From NCBI GenBank assembly GCA_902632605.1, contig CACPDB010000001.1:137090-201089 (forward strand): a stretch of DNA of 64,000 nucleotides, given 5' to 3'. The translations under genes were made by a program, and so were the position numbers. The stretch comes from an uncultured SAR86 cluster bacterium (GTDB taxonomy: Bacteria; Pseudomonadota; Gammaproteobacteria; Magnimaribacterales; AG-339-G14). Shown one piece after another: positions 39,404-43,351 of this stretch. The notes under the pieces were generated by a model that worked only from the letters and a program-made list of their open reading frames with translations, was not told the DNA's origin and ran no database searches. The first letter of the stretch is position 1; each line of letters opens with the position of its first letter.

Positions 39404-39435
39404 AAAAAAGGGAGGTTCGAAGACCTCCCTTTTTT
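39403..39435. terminator. Bidirectional intrinsic terminator
   Basis: A-tract, GGGAGGT-tcgaag-ACCTCCC, T-tract. Shared by secF and the minus-strand peptide cassette. Confidence 0.9.
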
Positions 39436-39438
39436 GTT

Positions 39439-39531
39439 CTAAAACAAAAATAAAATCAATACAGTAGAGATTAAGAATAATCCAATTACTGCGTCGATTT
39501 TACCAAGCTTTTGATGTCTTACTTTATACAT
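39439..39531 (-). CDS. 30-aa single-TM microprotein (not in ORF track)
   Basis: MYKVRHQKLGKIDAVIGLFLISTVLILFLF*. ATG overlaps the end of the YRG peptide and the stop abuts the terminator. Confidence 0.55.
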   Translation of the reverse strand: MYKVRHQKLGKIDAVIGLFLISTVLILFLF

Positions 39532-39691
39532 CTCTAACACCGCGATACCATTTAGGATAAACAGTAGTAGATTTCTTTTTGTTTTCAGACACTATAGCAT
39601 CATGTCTTATTCCACGGTAAATGCCAGAAGAAATAACTTTTTGTTCCTTCGCAACATTTTGTGGAGTTTGTTTGATACCTCTGTAGTACAT
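39524..39691 (-). CDS. 55-aa basic YRG-repeat peptide (DUF4278-like; not in ORF track)
   Basis: GGAGG RBS. MYYRGIKQTPQNVAKEQKVISSGIYRGIRHDAIVSENKKKSTTVYPKWYRGVRDV*, with three YRG[IV] motifs, downstream of a glutamine riboswitch. Confidence 0.85.
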   Translation of the reverse strand: MYYRGIKQTPQNVAKEQKVISSGIYRGIRHDAIVSENKKKSTTVYPKWYRGVRDV

Positions 39692-39755
39692 CGGTTTGAC
39701 CTCCAGTTTTCGTTTCGATTTCGTACATACGCTTCCCAGCGTACACCCTTCTCAA

Positions 39756-39884
39756 CGCGTTCCTTCAGTAAAACTTTCGGTCTCGTTCCCCTTACGGGTA
39801 CTTGCTTACCTATCTTTTAGATAGAGGTTTTCAGGTTTTCCTACTTCCGTTCAATGCACTAAAAAAGTGCATTGAATGAACGAT
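39756..39884 (-). promoter_or_regulatory. Glutamine-I riboswitch (glnA RNA motif) with expanded P3
   Basis: AUCGUUCA-[P2 UUCAAUGCAC/GUGCAUUGAA]-CGGAAGUAG-[P3]-CUGAAGGAACGCG. All conserved glnA-motif blocks are present in order. Confidence 0.85.
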
Positions 39885-39892
39885 TTAAGTGC

Positions 39893-39922
39893 ATTTTATC
39901 AAAAATAATAAAGGACTGTAAA
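39893..39922 (-). promoter_or_regulatory. Sigma70 promoter for the riboswitch cassette
   Basis: TTTACA, about 18 bp spacer, extended -10 TGaTAAAAT. Predicted start falls at the riboswitch 5' end. Confidence 0.6.
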
Positions 39923-39927
39923 CTTTT

Positions 39928-40719
39928 TTAAATAAAAGATTTTTTTATCTCTTTGTTTATGGCTTTAACACATGACATGTTGCCAGCAACAATATTATGG
40001 GACAGTAATACGTTTTCTTCACCATTAAAATCATTGACGAAGCCTCCAGCTTCCATTACCAACAATGCACCTGCAGCAAAGTCCCACACTTTCATACCAT
40101 ATCCTAAAAATGCATCTAACTTTCCCGAAGCCACAAAAGCCAAATCTAATGCTGTTGATCCAGTTCTTCTTAAAGTCAAAGAGTTTGAATAAAGATTTCT
40201 TATTAAAGTAAGTTGATCAAATTTTGGTTCAAGATTGGGACCGCCATGAAAAGAATTACATATCAATGAGTTTTTTAAACCTTTTATTTCTGAAACTCTT
40301 ATGCGAGTTTTATTCAGAAAAGCTCCTTTTCCTTTTGAAGCATAATATTCATCATCTCTTGAAAGATCGTATATTAATCCATGTTCTATTGAGCCTTTAT
40401 GGAAACAAGCAATTGAAATTGAGTAAAAGGGAAAATCATGAATGAAGTTTGTGGTTCCATCCAAAGGATCGATAACCCAATGATAATCAGCATTCTGATT
40501 ACCCTGGCGACCAGACTCCTCTCCCTCAAAAGAATGATCAGGAAAAGATGTCTTTAAGGTATCGATGATTATGTTCTCTGCAATACTATCAACTTGGGTA
40601 ACAAAATCAGTTGGTCCTTTTTCAAAAACATTAATTTTGTCTCTACGGCGAGAAAATTTATGAATTTCCTTTGCTGCAAGTCTTGCGGCGTTAATAGCAA
40701 TAGTAACTTTTGGTTCCAT
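39928..40719 (-). CDS. suhB: Inositol monophosphatase / Nus factor SuhB
   Basis: DFVTQVD, GEE, WVIDPLDGTTNF, RRTGS.ALD, WDFAAG. Confidence 0.93.
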   Translation of the reverse strand: MEPKVTIAINAARLAAKEIHKFSRRRDKINVFEKGPTDFVTQVDSIAENIIIDTLKTSFPDHSFEGEESGRQGNQNADYHWVIDPLDGTTNFIHDFPFYSISIACFHKGSIEHGLIYDLSRDDEYYASKGKGAFLNKTRIRVSEIKGLKNSLICNSFHGGPNLEPKFDQLTLIRNLYSNSLTLRRTGSTALDLAFVASGKLDAFLGYGMKVWDFAAGALLVMEAGGFVNDFNGEENVLLSHNIVAGNMSCVKAINKEIKKSFI

Positions 40720-40754
40720 GGTTTTTTTTAAGGAAAGAATTGTAAACTATATAG

Positions 40755-41498
40755 GTGCTTGATTCTTCACTTAAAAATAAATTTGAATTCATCTTGGTTG
40801 AACCTTCTCATCCCGGAAATATTGGAGCTACTGCTAGAGCGATTAAAAATATGGGGTTTCATAATCTTTCTTTGGTCAATCCAAAAGATTTTCCTAATGA
40901 TGATGCCCTCTATAGAGCTAAAGGTGCAAAAGATATTTTAGATAACGTAAAAGTTTATGATGATTTATCAAGTCCTTTAGAAGACGCCACCTTGATCTTT
41001 GGTACCAGCGCAAGAACTAGAACTATTCCATGGCCAACAAAGACTTCATCAGAACTTGGCACTGTCTTAAAAAAAACCTTAGAAAGTTCGAATGCAAAAA
41101 TTTGCTTTGTCTTTGGAAGGGAAATCAGCGGTTTAAGTAACGAAGAACTTCAAATGTGTGATTATCATATAAAGATTCCTACTGATGAGGATTTTTCATC
41201 TATAAATTTATCTCATGCAGTTCAAATTATTTCTTACGTACTCAAAATGGAATTAGATAGCATTGACTCAACTCAAGAAATTAAAGACGAAACTCCAACG
41301 TTTCAAGATAATGAATATTTAATTGATCATTTCGATAAAGTCATGAGGCAAATAGATTTTTATGATCAAGAAAATCCAAAGCAAGTAAAAACAAGAATGC
41401 GAAGACTCATTAAACGTCTTCAACCTGATAAATTAGAAACGGGTATCCTTAGAGGATTTTTAGCTAAAATTGAACAAATACTTAACAAAAAAAATTAG
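40755..41498 (+). CDS. trmJ: tRNA (C32/U32) 2'-O-methyltransferase
   Basis: HPGNIGATARA, FGRE..GL.NEE, SINL.HAV. Divergent from suhB. Confidence 0.9.
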   Translation: MLDSSLKNKFEFILVEPSHPGNIGATARAIKNMGFHNLSLVNPKDFPNDDALYRAKGAKDILDNVKVYDDLSSPLEDATLIFGTSARTRTIPWPTKTSSELGTVLKKTLESSNAKICFVFGREISGLSNEELQMCDYHIKIPTDEDFSSINLSHAVQIISYVLKMELDSIDSTQEIKDETPTFQDNEYLIDHFDKVMRQIDFYDQENPKQVKTRMRRLIKRLQPDKLETGILRGFLAKIEQILNKKN

Positions 41499-41523
41499 TC
41501 TGATAAAATCACCTTCCTTCAGT

Positions 41524-41598
41524 GTCCCCTTCGTCTAGCGGTTAGGACACCGGGTTTTCATCTCGGCAACAGGGGTTCGATCCCCCTAGGGGACGCCA
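41524..41598 (+). tRNA. tRNA-Glu(TTC)
   Basis: GTCCCCT...anticodon arm CCGGG-TT-TTC-AT-CTCGG...GGTTCGA...GGGGACGCCA. Confidence 0.95.
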
Positions 41599-41626
41599 AG
41601 AATTCTCTTGGCAAATACATCTGTTT

Positions 41627-41685
41627 TGCTATTTCTTAGTGCAAATAAATTTTTTAAATATCCATTTTTGAATAGTTTTAGTGCA
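41627..41685. promoter_or_regulatory. Two NtrC-like boxes upstream of glnK
   Basis: TGCTATTTCTTAGTGCA (41627-41643) and TGAATAGTTTTAGTGCA (41669-41685), 17-bp variants of TGCAC-N7-GTGCA, 42 bp apart. Confidence 0.6.
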
Positions 41686-41775
41686 AAAATCCATATTTTT
41701 GACTATTTGGCTTCAAAATTTGCTGATTTACAACGCTCTATAATTGCTCAAATTAATCTTTAATTAGGTGAAGAT

Positions 41776-42132
41776 ATGAAACTTTTAACAATAATAATAA
41801 AGCCTTCCAGATCTGATGGAGTTAGGCGGGCTTTATCAACCATTGGTACTGGTGGAGCTACTATAATTTCTGCTCAAGGTTTTGGGACTCAAAAAGGGCA
41901 TTCCGAAACTTACCGTGGAGCTAGTTATGAAGTAGATACAAAACCTAAAACGATGTTCCAAGTAGCTTGCAAAGACGATGACGTCGAAAACATCATTCAA
42001 GCCGTGCGAGAAGTCGCTAATACCGGCGAGATTGGTGATGGCAAGATTTTTGTAACAGAACTTAACGATGTTGTTCGCATCAGGACAGGTGAAACTGGTG
42101 AGGACGCTATAAAGGAGAATAGCAATGAGTGA
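41776..42132 (+). CDS. glnK: PII nitrogen regulatory protein GlnK
   Basis: GFG.QKGH.E.YRGA.Y T-loop, TGEIGDGKIFV, RIRTGE. Overlaps the amtB start. Confidence 0.93.
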   Translation: MKLLTIIIKPSRSDGVRRALSTIGTGGATIISAQGFGTQKGHSETYRGASYEVDTKPKTMFQVACKDDDVENIIQAVREVANTGEIGDGKIFVTELNDVVRIRTGETGEDAIKENSNE

Positions 42133-43351
42133 ATTAGAGTATGCATTAAATACTTTTTATTTATTAATCTCTGGAGCTTTCGTAATGTGGATGGCTGCAG
42201 GATTTACCATGTTAGAAGCCGGTTTAGTTAGAGCTAAAAACGTATCAGAAATTGTTACTAAAAACTTAGGTCTATACTCTATCGCATGTGTCATGTACTT
42301 AGTATGTGGTTTCTTTTTAATGTACCCAGGTGACAGCGTATACAACGGATACTTCCCAATGATAGGCAGTACTTGGGGTATTTCTTTAGATGGGCTAACT
42401 TTCAATACCGATTTAGGTTATTCAGATGCTGCTGACTTTTTCTTCCAGGTAGTTTTCGTTGCAACAGCAATGTCAATTATTTCTGGAGCTGTTGCAGAAA
42501 GAATGAAATTAATTCCATTTTTCTTATTTGCCATCGTCTTAACAGGTTTTATTTACCCAGTTCAAGGCTACTGGAAATGGGGCGGCGGTTGGTTAGACGC
42601 TATTGGTTATACTGATTTTGCGGGTTCGGGTGTTGTTCATTTATGTGGCGCAGCTGCTGCCCTTGCTGCGGTAATTATTCTTGGTCCTAGAACTGGAAAG
42701 TATGGTTCCGATGGATCTGTTAAAGTTATGAGAGGTTCAAATATTCCAATTGCAGCCTTAGGTGCACTAATCCTCTGGTTGGGCTGGTTTGGCTTCAACG
42801 GCGGTTCTCAATTAGCTGTCAACGATGCTGCTAATGCAAATGCTGTTGCTCAAGTCTTTTTGAACACAAATGCTGCTGCTGCAGGTGGTGTAATAGGAGC
42901 ATTACTTACAGCCAAATTCCTAACTGGTAAGGCAGATGTAACAATGGCCATTAACGGCGCCATTGCAGGTTTGGTTGCTATAACAGCAGCTCCAGATTCT
43001 CCCTCAGGTGGATTAGCTACAATCATAGGTTTTATCGGTGGAATAATTGTCTACTTCTCAGTCGTCTTCTTGGACACAGTCCTTAAAATAGATGATCCTG
43101 TTGGGGCGATTTCTGCTCATGGTACTGTTGGTATTTGGGGAATCATGGCGACACCACTTTCTGGTGCAGGAGCTTTTGGAACTCAAGCAATAGGTGCTAT
43201 TTCGATTTTCCTTTGGGCTTTCATTTGCACTGCAGGTACTTTGCTAGTGCTTAACACAACTATAGGTTTAAGGCCTTCAGAGGAAGAAGAAACTTCAGGA
43301 CTAGACGCTTCAGAAATTGGAGTGGAAGCTTATCCTGAGTTCAAAGATTAA
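42125..43351 (+). CDS. amtB: Ammonium transporter
   Basis: SGAVAER, DFAGSGVVH, GWFGFNGGS, IDDPV.AISAHG (twin His). Confidence 0.96.
   Translation: MSELEYALNTFYLLISGAFVMWMAAGFTMLEAGLVRAKNVSEIVTKNLGLYSIACVMYLVCGFFLMYPGDSVYNGYFPMIGSTWGISLDGLTFNTDLGYSDAADFFFQVVFVATAMSIISGAVAERMKLIPFFLFAIVLTGFIYPVQGYWKWGGGWLDAIGYTDFAGSGVVHLCGAAAALAAVIILGPRTGKYGSDGSVKVMRGSNIPIAALGALILWLGWFGFNGGSQLAVNDAANANAVAQVFLNTNAAAAGGVIGALLTAKFLTGKADVTMAINGAIAGLVAITAAPDSPSGGLATIIGFIGGIIVYFSVVFLDTVLKIDDPVGAISAHGTVGIWGIMATPLSGAGAFGTQAIGAISIFLWAFICTAGTLLVLNTTIGLRPSEEEETSGLDASEIGVEAYPEFKD

What the first reader, a model, noticed from the sequence alone, without database searches (positions are those of the whole stretch)
39524..42132. 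The three YRG motifs may mimic the three PII T-loops that plug the AmtB trimer
Seen: the nearby GlnK T-loop reads ETYRGASY, while the peptide carries YYRGI, IYRGI and WYRGV, spaced 22 and 24 residues apart by polar linkers. Known: in GlnK-AmtB complexes the T-loop Arg47 (within Y46-R47-G48) inserts into each cytoplasmic pore of trimeric AmtB. Inference: one peptide chain could act as a trivalent T-loop mimic that closes AmtB, or competes for other PII targets, when glutamine is high. This would give YRG peptides a mechanism. The alternative is IF7/IF17-style Arg-dependent binding to glutamine synthetase.
Basis: inference. Interest (0 to 1): 0.85.

Follow-up and report, generated by a model that had tools for sequence, protein, structure and literature searches.

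The report
Glutamine-gated peptide of three PII-like loops
A marine bacterium makes, behind a glutamine-sensing RNA switch, a 55-residue peptide whose three Tyr-Arg-Gly hairpins appear related to the target-binding loop of the nitrogen regulator PII, so it may act on PII targets such as the ammonium channel, although no binding has been shown.

Summary
Window 39524-39691 (-) encodes a 55-aa peptide with YRG at residues 3, 25 and 49. GlnK (41776-42132) has Y46-R47-G48 in its T-loop.

The peptide sits behind a glutamine riboswitch (RF01739, 42.2 bits, cut-off 35). It is a sub-threshold DUF4278 relative. This riboswitch-peptide module is published for cyanobacteria, and this scan has noted it before on other DNA, mostly phages.

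New here:
- **Invariant motifs.** In 55 family members the only invariant residues are the three YRG triplets, each modelled as a hairpin tip.
- **A bridge to PII.** A family from Desulfobaccales carries three such repeats inside a PII-like frame. It matches the peptide family (hhalign 96.7%) and solved PII proteins (E 8e-8). The repeats therefore look like T-loop copies.
- **Position.** The gene stays within 2.2 kb of glnK-amtB in four of five genera.
- **No GlnD.** It was found in 0 of 36 genomes of this family.
- **A second gene.** A 30-aa membrane micropeptide is translationally coupled to the peptide.

An AmtB-peptide fold gave only weak support (0.52 against controls of 0.00). The target is unproven: AmtB is the best guess, and glutamine synthetase or PII signalling remain open.

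The parts
39893..39922 (-). promoter-like site TTTACA-18-TAAAAT just upstream of the riboswitch
   Evidence: Consensus scan, 10 of 12 matches with a TG before the second hexamer. This is a pattern match only; the region held fewer such sites (6) than its shuffles (mean 9.0).
39754..39884 (-). glutamine riboswitch aptamer (glnA RNA, RF01739) with a 69-nt inserted domain
   Evidence: cmscan 42.2 bits, gathering score 35, E 7.6e-07, model positions 1-53 of 53. The same family lies directly upstream of the peptide gene in 15 of 15 and 10 of 12 further loci scanned. The inserted domain is conserved in host and phage copies.
39692..39753 (-). leader between aptamer and start codon, with Shine-Dalgarno GGAGG at 39700-39704
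   Evidence: Sequence read. CTGGAGG and its flank are invariant in 10 of 10 aligned leaders. The mechanism of the expression platform was not resolved.
39524..39691 (-). 55-aa YRG peptide (three YRG hairpin units; DUF4278-like)
   Evidence: ORF. Pfam DUF4278 17.8 bits, E 0.0043, below the 25.3 cut-off. 52 of 55 aligned relatives hit DUF4278 at E<=0.01. Found in 32 of 36 genomes of the same family. AF2 model pLDDT 75.3 with R-G at three hairpin turns.
39439..39531 (-). 30-aa micropeptide gene with one hydrophobic helix; its ATG overlaps the last two codons and the stop of the YRG gene by 8 nt
   Evidence: ORF. Conserved in more than 20 cell and phage loci by tblastn. Substitutions by codon position are 767/510/1543 across 18 sequences. 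Related overlapping micropeptides follow other YRG clades.
39410..39429 (.). G+C-rich hairpin flanked by an A-run and a T-run, between the convergent secF and the peptide operon; a likely two-way terminator
   Evidence: Read directly. The terminator scan did not list it.
41776..42132 (+). glnK (PII); T-loop Y46-R47-G48 encoded at 41911-41919
   Evidence: Pfam P-II 97.2 bits. NCBIfam P-II models 131.5 and 110.6 bits, both below their equivalog cut-offs.
42125..43351 (+). amtB (ammonium transporter, marine subtype), overlapping the end of glnK
   Evidence: Pfam Ammonium_transp 339.6 bits. TIGR03644 589 bits, cut-off 514.

Best explanation
The locus is a small operon: promoter, glutamine riboswitch, 55-aa YRG peptide, overlapping 30-aa membrane micropeptide, terminator. 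When glutamine is high the riboswitch lets the peptide be translated; that direction is inferred by analogy with gifB. The peptide is a chain of three short beta-hairpins, each with Arg-Gly at its tip, joined by flexible basic linkers. These hairpins are probably evolutionary copies of the PII T-loop, the element through which trimeric PII touches its targets. The peptide would then be a scaffold-free triple T-loop that occupies T-loop docking sites. In this organism no GlnD was found to tell PII about glutamine, and only a type-II-like GS was found. The most likely site is therefore the cytoplasmic face of trimeric AmtB, closing ammonium uptake when glutamine is plentiful. Shown: the riboswitch, the gene, the repeat anatomy, the sequence bridge to PII, the synteny and the lack of GlnD hits. 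Inferred: the ON direction, T-loop-like action, and AmtB as the target.
For: - Riboswitch: RF01739 at 42.2 bits against a cut-off of 35. It stands before the peptide gene in 25 of 27 further loci.
- Family anatomy: 71 of 84 short hits carry three [YFW]RG motifs 19-26 residues apart. In a 55-sequence alignment the only invariant columns are the nine Y, R and G residues. The AF2 model (pLDDT 75.3, pTM 0.28) puts R4-G5, R26-G27 and R50-G51 at hairpin turns.
- Bridge to PII: the peptide profile finds 3xYRG proteins of 92-160 aa at E 1.5e-9 in 5.8 billion sequences. These come from Desulfobaccales MAGs, and several are named 'nitrogen regulatory protein PII' by JGI. This family matches the peptide family over all three repeats (hhalign 96.7%, E 4.5e-10). 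It also matches PII (hhalign 77.9%, E 1.8e-5, 56 ungapped columns from the T-loop to the B-loop and strand 4).
- Solved structures: against all PDB chains, 26 of the bridge family's 27 hits, including the best 22, are PII or GlnK proteins. The best is E 8.4e-8, and E. coli GlnK of the AmtB complex (2nuu) scores 4.7e-6. Repeats 1 and 3 both align to PII residues 37-57.
- Synteny: 2.1 kb from glnK in the window's own genus; 104 nt after amtB, convergent, in genus g4; directly after amtB on the same strand in g3. It lies about 2.0 kb from an amt-amtB-glnK cluster in G041 and 1.1 kb from glnK in a K189A-clade genome.
- GlnD domain PF08335: 0 of 36 genomes of this family, against 8 of 8 and 7 of 8 in two sister families.
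- Complex fold of AmtB x2 plus peptide: weak support, score 0.52, best of 3 controls 0.00. That mark was reached by 58 of 80 solved complexes and 2 of 110 mismatched pairs. At 0.60 or under it was reached by only 7 of those 80 and by both passing mismatches. The runs agree in at least 89% of contacts, and the partner's pLDDT is at least 56.
- The co-translated membrane micropeptide points to action at the membrane.
- Precedent: M. mazei sP36, a 61-aa protein, binds AmtB1 and GlnK1 in an organism without glnD (PMC10714827, abstract and Discussion).
Against: - The peptide family itself does not match PII: hhalign gives 4.2%, and there is no PII among 4 PDB hits at E<=10. The link rests on one bridge family with low alignment diversity (Neff 1.7). 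That family could be a chimera.
- The flanks differ from the T-loop. Position +4 is basic in 122 of 165 repeats but S or E in the T-loops.
- GlnK R47A still binds AmtB, and GlnK responds to nitrogen status without uridylylation (PMC4274968 passages). A missing GlnD therefore creates no strict need for a substitute.
- A weak complex pass is, by the tool's own calibration, more often wrong than right unless the guess was likely beforehand, and it may be memory of GlnK-AmtB. No interface was given, only two of three AmtB copies fitted, and GS, GlnK and NtrB could not be tried.
- In genus g2 the gene lies 13 kb from amtB. In G315 no amtB or glnK lies in the 15 kb fetched. Family f4 shows neither GlnD nor the peptide, and G041 has both. 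The genera are kin, and short-range moves could keep the proximity without selection.
- Many copies sit in phage contigs.
Confidence: 0.4

Rival explanations
1. The peptide is an IF17-like inhibitor of glutamine synthetase. At high glutamine its arginines dock on acidic patches or subunit crevices of GS (here the type-II-like enzyme) and switch assimilation off.
For: - The riboswitch-DUF4278 pairing is the gifB (IF17) arrangement, and IF17-like proteins were proposed as GS factors (PMC6212724 passages).
- The IF17 N-terminal region 'seems to improve GS inactivation' (PMC6316151 passages).
- GlnK1 T-loops insert between GS subunits in M. mazei (PMC10651883 passages).
- The peptide is strongly basic, 12 K+R against 4 D+E, as the inactivating factors are said to be.
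Against: - The 55-aa peptide is DUF4278 only: profile positions 4-55 cover residues 2-52. The GS-contacting residues of IF17 lie in the C-terminal, IF7-like part, which short DUF4278 proteins lack (PMC6212724 and PMC6316151 passages).
- The own genome (92.6% complete) shows only a 349-aa type-II-like GS and no GS of type-I size. Among the 36 genomes of the family only G019 has one.
- The gene keeps company with glnK-amtB, not with the GS gene, which is on another contig.
Confidence: 0.2
2. The peptide acts on PII signalling rather than on the channel. It either binds the GlnK/GlnB trimer, one repeat per subunit cleft, or competes with GlnB T-loops on NtrB. In that way it feeds the glutamine signal into a PII system that has no GlnD.
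For: - Three repeats match a trimer such as PII as well as they match AmtB.
- Two PII genes are present, together with a sigma-54 activator about 1.6 kb after the GS gene, read here as ntrC-like.
- GlnD was not found in 0 of 36 family genomes.
- sP36 of M. mazei binds both GlnK1 and AmtB1 (PMC10714827).
- T-loop homology implies competition at any T-loop docking site.
Against: The membrane micropeptide partner and the positions next to amtB fit a membrane target better. Nothing in the peptide resembles known PII ligands.
Confidence: 0.15
3. The T-loop likeness has no functional meaning. The YRG hairpins bind something else, for example RNA, the ribosome, acidic lipids or a phage-relevant target. 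The proximity to amtB would then be inherited gene order.
For: - There is no direct profile match between the peptides and PII.
- The best weak PDB hits of the peptide profile are ribosomal protein S15 tails, E 0.22-1.1.
- 57 of 80 metagenome loci showed none of the ten host marker proteins, and all 4 of those examined were phage-like.
- The peptide is rare in the class: 3 of 400 genomes sampled.
Against: The bridge family is significant both ways. Gating by a glutamine riboswitch in 26 of 28 loci, the window included, ties the peptide to nitrogen status. Three different placements beside amtB occur.
Confidence: 0.2

Closest known systems
Synechocystis gifB (IF17) leader and gene: type-1 glutamine riboswitch in front of a DUF4278 protein (Klaehn et al. 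2018, PMC6212724)
   Same: The same Rfam family, RF01739, stands directly before a DUF4278-type YRG coding region. Expression is expected to rise with glutamine.
   Different: IF17 carries an extra C-terminal, IF7-like part that inhibits GS type I. The window's peptide is the DUF4278 part only. The host is a heterotrophic gammaproteobacterium with a type-II-like GS. The aptamer has a 69-nt inserted domain, and a membrane micropeptide gene follows.
Short DUF4278 'IF17-like' proteins of marine picocyanobacteria (e.g. PMM1846 behind a Glutamine-II / Downstream-peptide riboswitch)
   Same: A small basic protein of about 7 kDa (PMM1846, PMC6316151) that bears DUF4278, lacks the GS-binding C-terminal sequences, is gated by a glutamine riboswitch, and has an unknown target.
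   Different: The riboswitch class differs (RF01704 there, RF01739 here), as does the phylum. The window's peptide scores below the Pfam cut-off.
PII (GlnK) T-loop plugging trimeric AmtB (Conroy 2007, as cited in PMC4274968)
   Same: A Y-R-G tip with Arg at the end of an extended loop or hairpin; three such tips per regulator; glnK-amtB lies nearby. The bridge family aligns YRG repeats to PII residues 37-57.
   Different: The peptide has no PII core, no nucleotide or 2-oxoglutarate site and no trimer. Its residues flanking YRG are basic rather than acidic. Binding is not shown.
Methanosarcina mazei sP36 (61 aa; Habenicht et al. 2023, PMC10714827)
   Same: A small protein that acts on AmtB together with GlnK after a nitrogen upshift. 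Its distribution is reported to go with the absence of glnD, as was found here for this family.
   Different: sP36 is described as a negatively charged hexamer, whereas this peptide is basic and repeat-built. Sequence relatedness was not tested, because no sP36 sequence was in hand.
Desulfobaccales 3xYRG PII-like proteins
   Same: Three YRG repeats at the same spacing; hhalign 96.7% to the peptide family.
   Different: These proteins are 92-160 aa long and keep PII-like strand 2, helix 2, B-loop and strand 4 around the repeats. Their gene context and regulation are unknown.

Membership tests
Glutamine riboswitch, glnA RNA (Rfam RF01739) | Covariance-model score at or above the gathering score over the full model | tested here: met
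   42.2 bits against 35, model positions 1-53 of 53. Note that the whole-genome search tool missed it.
Glutamine riboswitch, glnA RNA (Rfam RF01739) | Glutamine binding and ligand-dependent control of translation | not testable with these tools
   Taken by analogy with gifB (PMC6212724 passages). The minimum-free-energy fold pairs part of the Shine-Dalgarno region. By my reading of alignment A5 that helix is not kept in other leaders.
DUF4278 (Pfam PF14105) | Score at or above the Pfam gathering cut-off (25.3 bits) | tested here: not met
   The window peptide scores 17.8 bits, E 0.0043.
DUF4278 (Pfam PF14105) | Homology to family members shown through relatives | tested here: met
   52 of 55 aligned relatives hit DUF4278 at E<=0.01, best 1.1e-12. 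The protein-atlas neighbours are DUF4278 clusters, at scores of 0.84-0.87, which makes them leads only.
GS inactivating factors IF7/IF17 | An IF7-like region carrying the arginines essential for GS binding (C-terminal in IF17) | not tested
   No IF7 or IF17 sequence was in hand. By length the peptide is fully covered by the DUF4278 match (residues 2-52 of 55), which leaves no room for that region.
GS inactivating factors IF7/IF17 | A type-I GS present as the target | tested here: not met
   Only a 349-aa type-II-like GS was found in a genome that is 92.6% complete. Within the family, a type-I-size GS occurs in 1 of 36 genomes.
PII signal proteins (Pfam PF00543) | The PII fold and profile match | tested here: not met
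   The Pfam scan of the peptide lists only DUF4278. hhalign of the peptide family against PII gives 4.2%. No PII appears in the PDB search.
PII T-loop-like element (a working likeness, not family membership) | YRG repeats that can stand in for the T-loop within a PII frame | tested here: met
   Bridge family A7 matches the peptide family at 96.7%. It matches PII at 77.9% and at E 8.4e-8 in the PDB search, where repeats 1 and 3 align to PII residues 37-57.
AmtB-binding regulators (GlnK-like or sP36-like action) | Physical binding to AmtB | tested here: inconclusive
   The complex fold gave weak support: score 0.52, best control 0.00. The calibration counts are given in the For line.

The most novel reading that the evidence does not exclude
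DUF4278/YRG peptides are free-standing triple T-loops descended from PII. In bacteria without GlnD, and in phages that carry the module, a glutamine riboswitch makes this single chain when glutamine is high. Its three arginine-tipped hairpins then plug the three pores of AmtB, helped in some clades by a co-translated membrane micropeptide. In IF17 the same module would be joined to a GS-blocking domain, so that uptake and assimilation are shut together. Glutamine sensing would thus reach a PII target with no PII modification at all.
Probability: 0.3. Interest if true: 0.9.

Novelty: new variant of a known kind. Interest (0 to 1): 0.7.

Why it matters
The small proteins behind glutamine riboswitches ('Downstream-peptide' or DUF4278 proteins) are widespread in marine cyanobacteria, in other abundant marine bacteria and in their phages. 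The literature I could search still gives them no target (PMC6316151 passages; searches). A sequence bridge to the PII T-loop supplies a concrete, cheap hypothesis: test AmtB and the other PII partners with a synthetic 55-mer and Arg-to-Ala variants. If it holds, it would reveal an RNA-to-peptide route for glutamine control of ammonium uptake that bypasses GlnD. It would also explain why phages carry the module.

Tried and rejected
- **Genome-collection scan with the close-homologue alignment A1:** 60 pattern matches, none confirmed. A3 was too variable for the scan (error). A2 gave 5 loci.
- **Whole-genome Rfam search of the window's own genome:** it missed the riboswitch that cmscan finds.
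- **tblastn of two family peptides against 50,697 phage records:** no match, even at E<=1. This is probably a limit of sensitivity for queries of about 55 aa.
- **Phage Melnitz (MZ577097).** I checked it because its host is reported to lack GS (PMC9004378 passages). Its riboswitch (52.8 bits) is followed by a 32-aa ORF that has no YRG and is not annotated in the record. It therefore gives no test.
- **Direct homology of the peptide family to PII:** hhalign 4.2%, and the PDB profile search found no PII.
- **AF2 model of the bridge family:** pLDDT 33.6, unusable, so no fold search was run.
- **Fold search of the 55-aa model:** not run, because at pTM 0.28 the matches would be meaningless.
- **Shine-Dalgarno-sequestering helix of the minimum-free-energy fold:** by eye it is not conserved in alignment A5. 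No formal covariation test was made.
- **Presence or absence of amt:** not informative. It is found in 57 of 61 relatives, and genomes lacking the peptide often lack the whole region.
- **A 5,308-aa hit (P0069):** it has no YRG and was dropped as spurious.
- **Supplementary files of Klaehn 2018** (the alignment of IF17-like proteins) could not be read. They might show whether the YRG/T-loop likeness was noticed. The word 'T-loop' occurs 0 times in the main texts of PMC6212724 and PMC6316151.
Full report
**What is there.** The minus strand of window 39439-39922 holds a compact unit.
- A promoter-like TTTACA-18-TAAAAT site lies at 39893-39922.
- A glutamine riboswitch aptamer lies at 39754-39884. 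It scores 42.2 bits for RF01739 against a gathering score of 35, over the full model, and has a 69-nt insertion.
- A leader follows, with GGAGG 8 nt before the ATG.
- The 55-codon ORF lies at 39524-39691.
- A second ORF of 30 codons lies at 39439-39531. Its ATG overlaps the last two codons and the stop of the first gene.
- A G+C-rich hairpin at 39410-39429, between an A-run and a T-run, faces the convergent secF. I read it; the scan did not list it.
- On the plus strand, 2.1 kb away, lie glnK (41776-42132) and the overlapping amtB (42125-43351). A suhB-like gene, a trmJ-like gene and tRNA-Glu lie in between.

**The observation.** The peptide reads YYRGI, IYRGI and WYRGV at residues 2-6, 24-28 and 48-52, with spacings of 22 and 24. 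GlnK reads ETYRGASY with Y46-R47-G48-Y51. The genome has 43 YRG in 386,195 residues of long ORFs. It has only this one small ORF with two or more YRG, and only this one riboswitch core. The triple motif is therefore not chance. The shared tripeptide with the T-loop, taken alone, could be.

**The organism.** The window lies in a 1.22-Mb genome of 34% G+C, 92.6% complete. Its relatives are titled 'MAG: Gammaproteobacteria bacterium'. I saw no finer name.

**The family.**
- A word-index search found 15 close relatives. In the 12 that are intact there, all three YRG are kept.
- The peptide occurs once per genome in 32 of 36 genomes of the same family. It occurs in 0 of 8, 1 of 8 and 0 of 8 genomes of three sister families, and in 3 of 400 genomes sampled across the class.
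- A profile search of 1.84 billion representatives gave 86 hits at E<=0.001. Of the other 84, 71 have three [YFW]RG motifs, 12 have two and 1 has one. By my reading, several of the 13 short of three are cut or end in what look like adapter-derived tails.
- In an alignment of 55 members the only invariant columns are the nine Y, R and G residues. The repeat consensus from 165 repeats is G-[IV]-Y-R-G-[VI]-[KR]-[WHY].
- 52 of the 55 hit Pfam DUF4278 at E<=0.01. The window peptide itself scores 17.8 bits, below the cut-off of 25.3.
- An AF2 model (pLDDT 75.3, pTM 0.28) puts each R-G at the two-residue turn of a beta-hairpin.

**What is already known.**
- Passages of Klaehn et al. 2018 (PMC6212724) and Bolay et al. 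2018 (PMC6316151) state the following. Glutamine aptamers mostly precede DUF4278 genes. [quoted passage not shown] That moiety is dispensable for inhibition but stabilises the protein. Short DUF4278 proteins lack the GS-binding C-terminal part, and their function is open.
- This scan had already noted the riboswitch-YRG module in at least seven other genomes, mostly phages and cyanobacteria, with the target unknown.
- I found no paper linking DUF4278 to the T-loop. 'T-loop' occurs 0 times in the two main texts. Supplements were closed.

**The riboswitch link is general.** RF01739 scores above its cut-off directly upstream of the peptide gene in 15 of 15 loci and in 10 of 12 more. The two misses are a truncated locus, and G315, which has no recognised switch. 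The 69-nt insert is conserved between host and phage copies. How the platform frees the ribosome site is unresolved. The ON direction is taken from gifB.

**The bridge to PII is the main new result.**
- Searching longer proteins with the peptide profile found 3xYRG proteins at E 1.5e-9. JGI names two of them 'nitrogen regulatory protein PII'.
- They belong to a family of 15 clusters of 92-160 aa. Two members are named as coming from Desulfobaccales MAGs.
- The order of parts, by my reading, is: a strand-2-like piece, three YRG repeats, then pieces like strand 3, helix 2 and the GDGKIF B-loop of PII.
- hhalign gives 96.7% (E 4.5e-10, 50 columns, all three repeats) against the peptide family. 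It gives 77.9% (E 1.8e-5, 56 ungapped columns) against a seven-sequence PII alignment.
- Against all PDB chains, 26 of its 27 hits, including the best 22, are PII or GlnK proteins. The best is E 8.4e-8. E. coli GlnK (1gnk, 2nuu) scores 4.7e-6. Repeat 1 and repeat 3 each align to PII residues 37-57.
- The YRG repeats therefore stand where T-loops stand.
- Limits: the peptide family alone does not reach PII. The bridge alignment is shallow. Its AF2 model failed at pLDDT 33.6. I could not fetch its gene context.

**Gene neighbourhood** (tblastn with window proteins on 20 loci; further loci).
- In the window's genus the order is secDF, then the peptide on the opposite strand, suhB, trmJ, glnK, amtB.
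- In genus g4 the peptide lies 104 nt after amtB, convergent.
- In g3 the riboswitch starts 85 nt after amtB on the same strand.
- In G041 (another family) the peptide is about 2.0 kb from an amt paralogue, amtB and glnK.
- In a K189A-clade contig the riboswitch is 1.1 kb from glnK, across one Gcw_chp gene.
- Against this, in g2 the gene lies between era-like and recO genes, 13 kb from amtB. In G315 no amtB or glnK is in the 15 kb fetched.
- These lineages are kin, so the arrangements are not independent events.

**Nitrogen genes in the genome.**
- No GlnD domain was found in the own genome or in 0 of 36 genomes of the family. It was found in 8 of 8 and 7 of 8 genomes of two sister families, and in 0 of 8 of a third, which also lacks the peptide.
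- GlnE was not found.
- The only GS is a 349-aa type-II-like enzyme. A sigma-54 activator lies about 1.6 kb after it.
- There are two PII genes and two amt genes.
- The riboswitch is thus the only glutamine sensor I could recognise. The idea that it stands in for GlnD is my inference. It echoes sP36 of M. mazei (PMC10714827, abstract and Discussion). But GlnK can respond without modification (PMC4274968 passages).

**Complex fold.** AmtB (13-row alignment, two copies) plus the peptide (16 rows) gave the verdict 'weak support'.
- The scores were 0.54, 0.49 and 0.52. The best of 3 controls was 0.00.
- That mark was reached by 58 of 80 solved complexes and 2 of 110 mismatched pairs. At 0.60 or under it was reached by only 7 of those 80 and by both passing mismatches.
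- The runs agree in at least 89% of contacts, and the partner's pLDDT is at least 56. No interface was reported.
- The pass may reflect likeness to solved GlnK-AmtB complexes. The full trimer (1,224 residues) exceeded the limit, and no second job was available for GS or GlnK.

**The membrane micropeptide.**
- The 30-aa ORF has a basic head and then about 19 hydrophobic residues.
- It is conserved in more than 20 loci, both cellular and phage-like.
- Differences fall mainly on third codon positions: 1543 against 767 and 510.
- In one locus a stop just upstream leaves the overlapping ATG as the first start in that frame.
- Related overlapping micropeptides follow other YRG clades (L074, L093, L103, L112, L114).
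- Most clades, including the g4, g3 and second g1 types, have none.

**Phages.**
- Of the 80 metagenome loci kept (124 relatives found), 23 showed host markers and 11 of those showed amtB or glnK.
- 57 showed none of the ten query proteins. All 4 of those that I examined carry phage hallmark genes: major head protein, late sigma factor, terminase and portal, or ribonucleotide reductase.
- Some phage-context peptides are 80-87% identical to the window's.

**Verdict.** The module is a known kind in a new setting. The target is not settled. T-loops also dock on GS (PMC10651883 passages) and on other partners. My odds are about 0.4 for a T-loop-like plug acting chiefly on AmtB, 0.2 for GS, 0.15 for PII or NtrB signalling, and 0.2 for something unrelated.

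Noticed in passing
window 39439-39531 (-): A 30-aa single-helix micropeptide gene whose ATG overlaps the end of the YRG gene. It is conserved in cell and phage copies with a coding pattern of substitutions, and related micropeptides follow other YRG clades.
   Followed up: partly
window 39754-39884 (-), inside the aptamer: A 69-nt inserted domain in the glutamine aptamer (AAAACCTCT, a hairpin, then ...GGGAACGAGACCGAA). It is conserved in host and phage leaders but absent from two shorter versions (L019, L040). It contains a second GAACGA that the minimum-free-energy fold pairs with the 5' strand of P1.
   Followed up: partly
proteins P0104-P0141 (alignments A7, A8): Desulfobaccales proteins of 92-160 aa that look like a PII lacking strand 1 and helix 1 and carrying its T-loop in three copies. 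Pfam calls several of them DUF4278, and JGI calls several PII.
   Followed up: partly
L068, L075, L088, L103, L108 and other metagenome loci: Marine phage contigs (T4-like and others) carry the same riboswitch-YRG module. Some of their peptides are 80-87% identical to the window's, and some carry the micropeptide too.
   Followed up: partly
G000 C6:27436-28485 and C6:30117-30617; whole genome: The genome shows only a type-II-like glutamine synthetase, followed about 1.6 kb later by a sigma-54 activator. No GlnD or GlnE domain was found. GlnD was also found in none of the 36 genomes of the family.
   Followed up: partly
G000 whole genome against window 39754-39884: The whole-genome Rfam search tool reported no RF01739 match in the window's own genome, although cmscan on the window finds it above the cut-off. 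The 69-nt insert may defeat the first-look filter.
   Followed up: no
L139 (phage Melnitz MZ577097) 1501-1672: The phage's glutamine riboswitch, described in print as controlling the upstream tmRNA, is followed by a 32-codon ORF with its own ribosome site that is not annotated in the record. That ORF is basic and has no YRG.
   Followed up: no
proteins P0013-P0015: Three metagenome versions lose the third YRG through an apparent frameshift. One of them reads through into the micropeptide frame. This could be an assembly error or a real fusion.
   Followed up: no
window 42125-43351, C-terminus of AmtB: The cytoplasmic tail of this marine-subtype AmtB is strongly acidic (...RPSEEEETSGLDASEIGVEAYPEF) and conserved among relatives. 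It is a possible docking site for a basic peptide.
   Followed up: no
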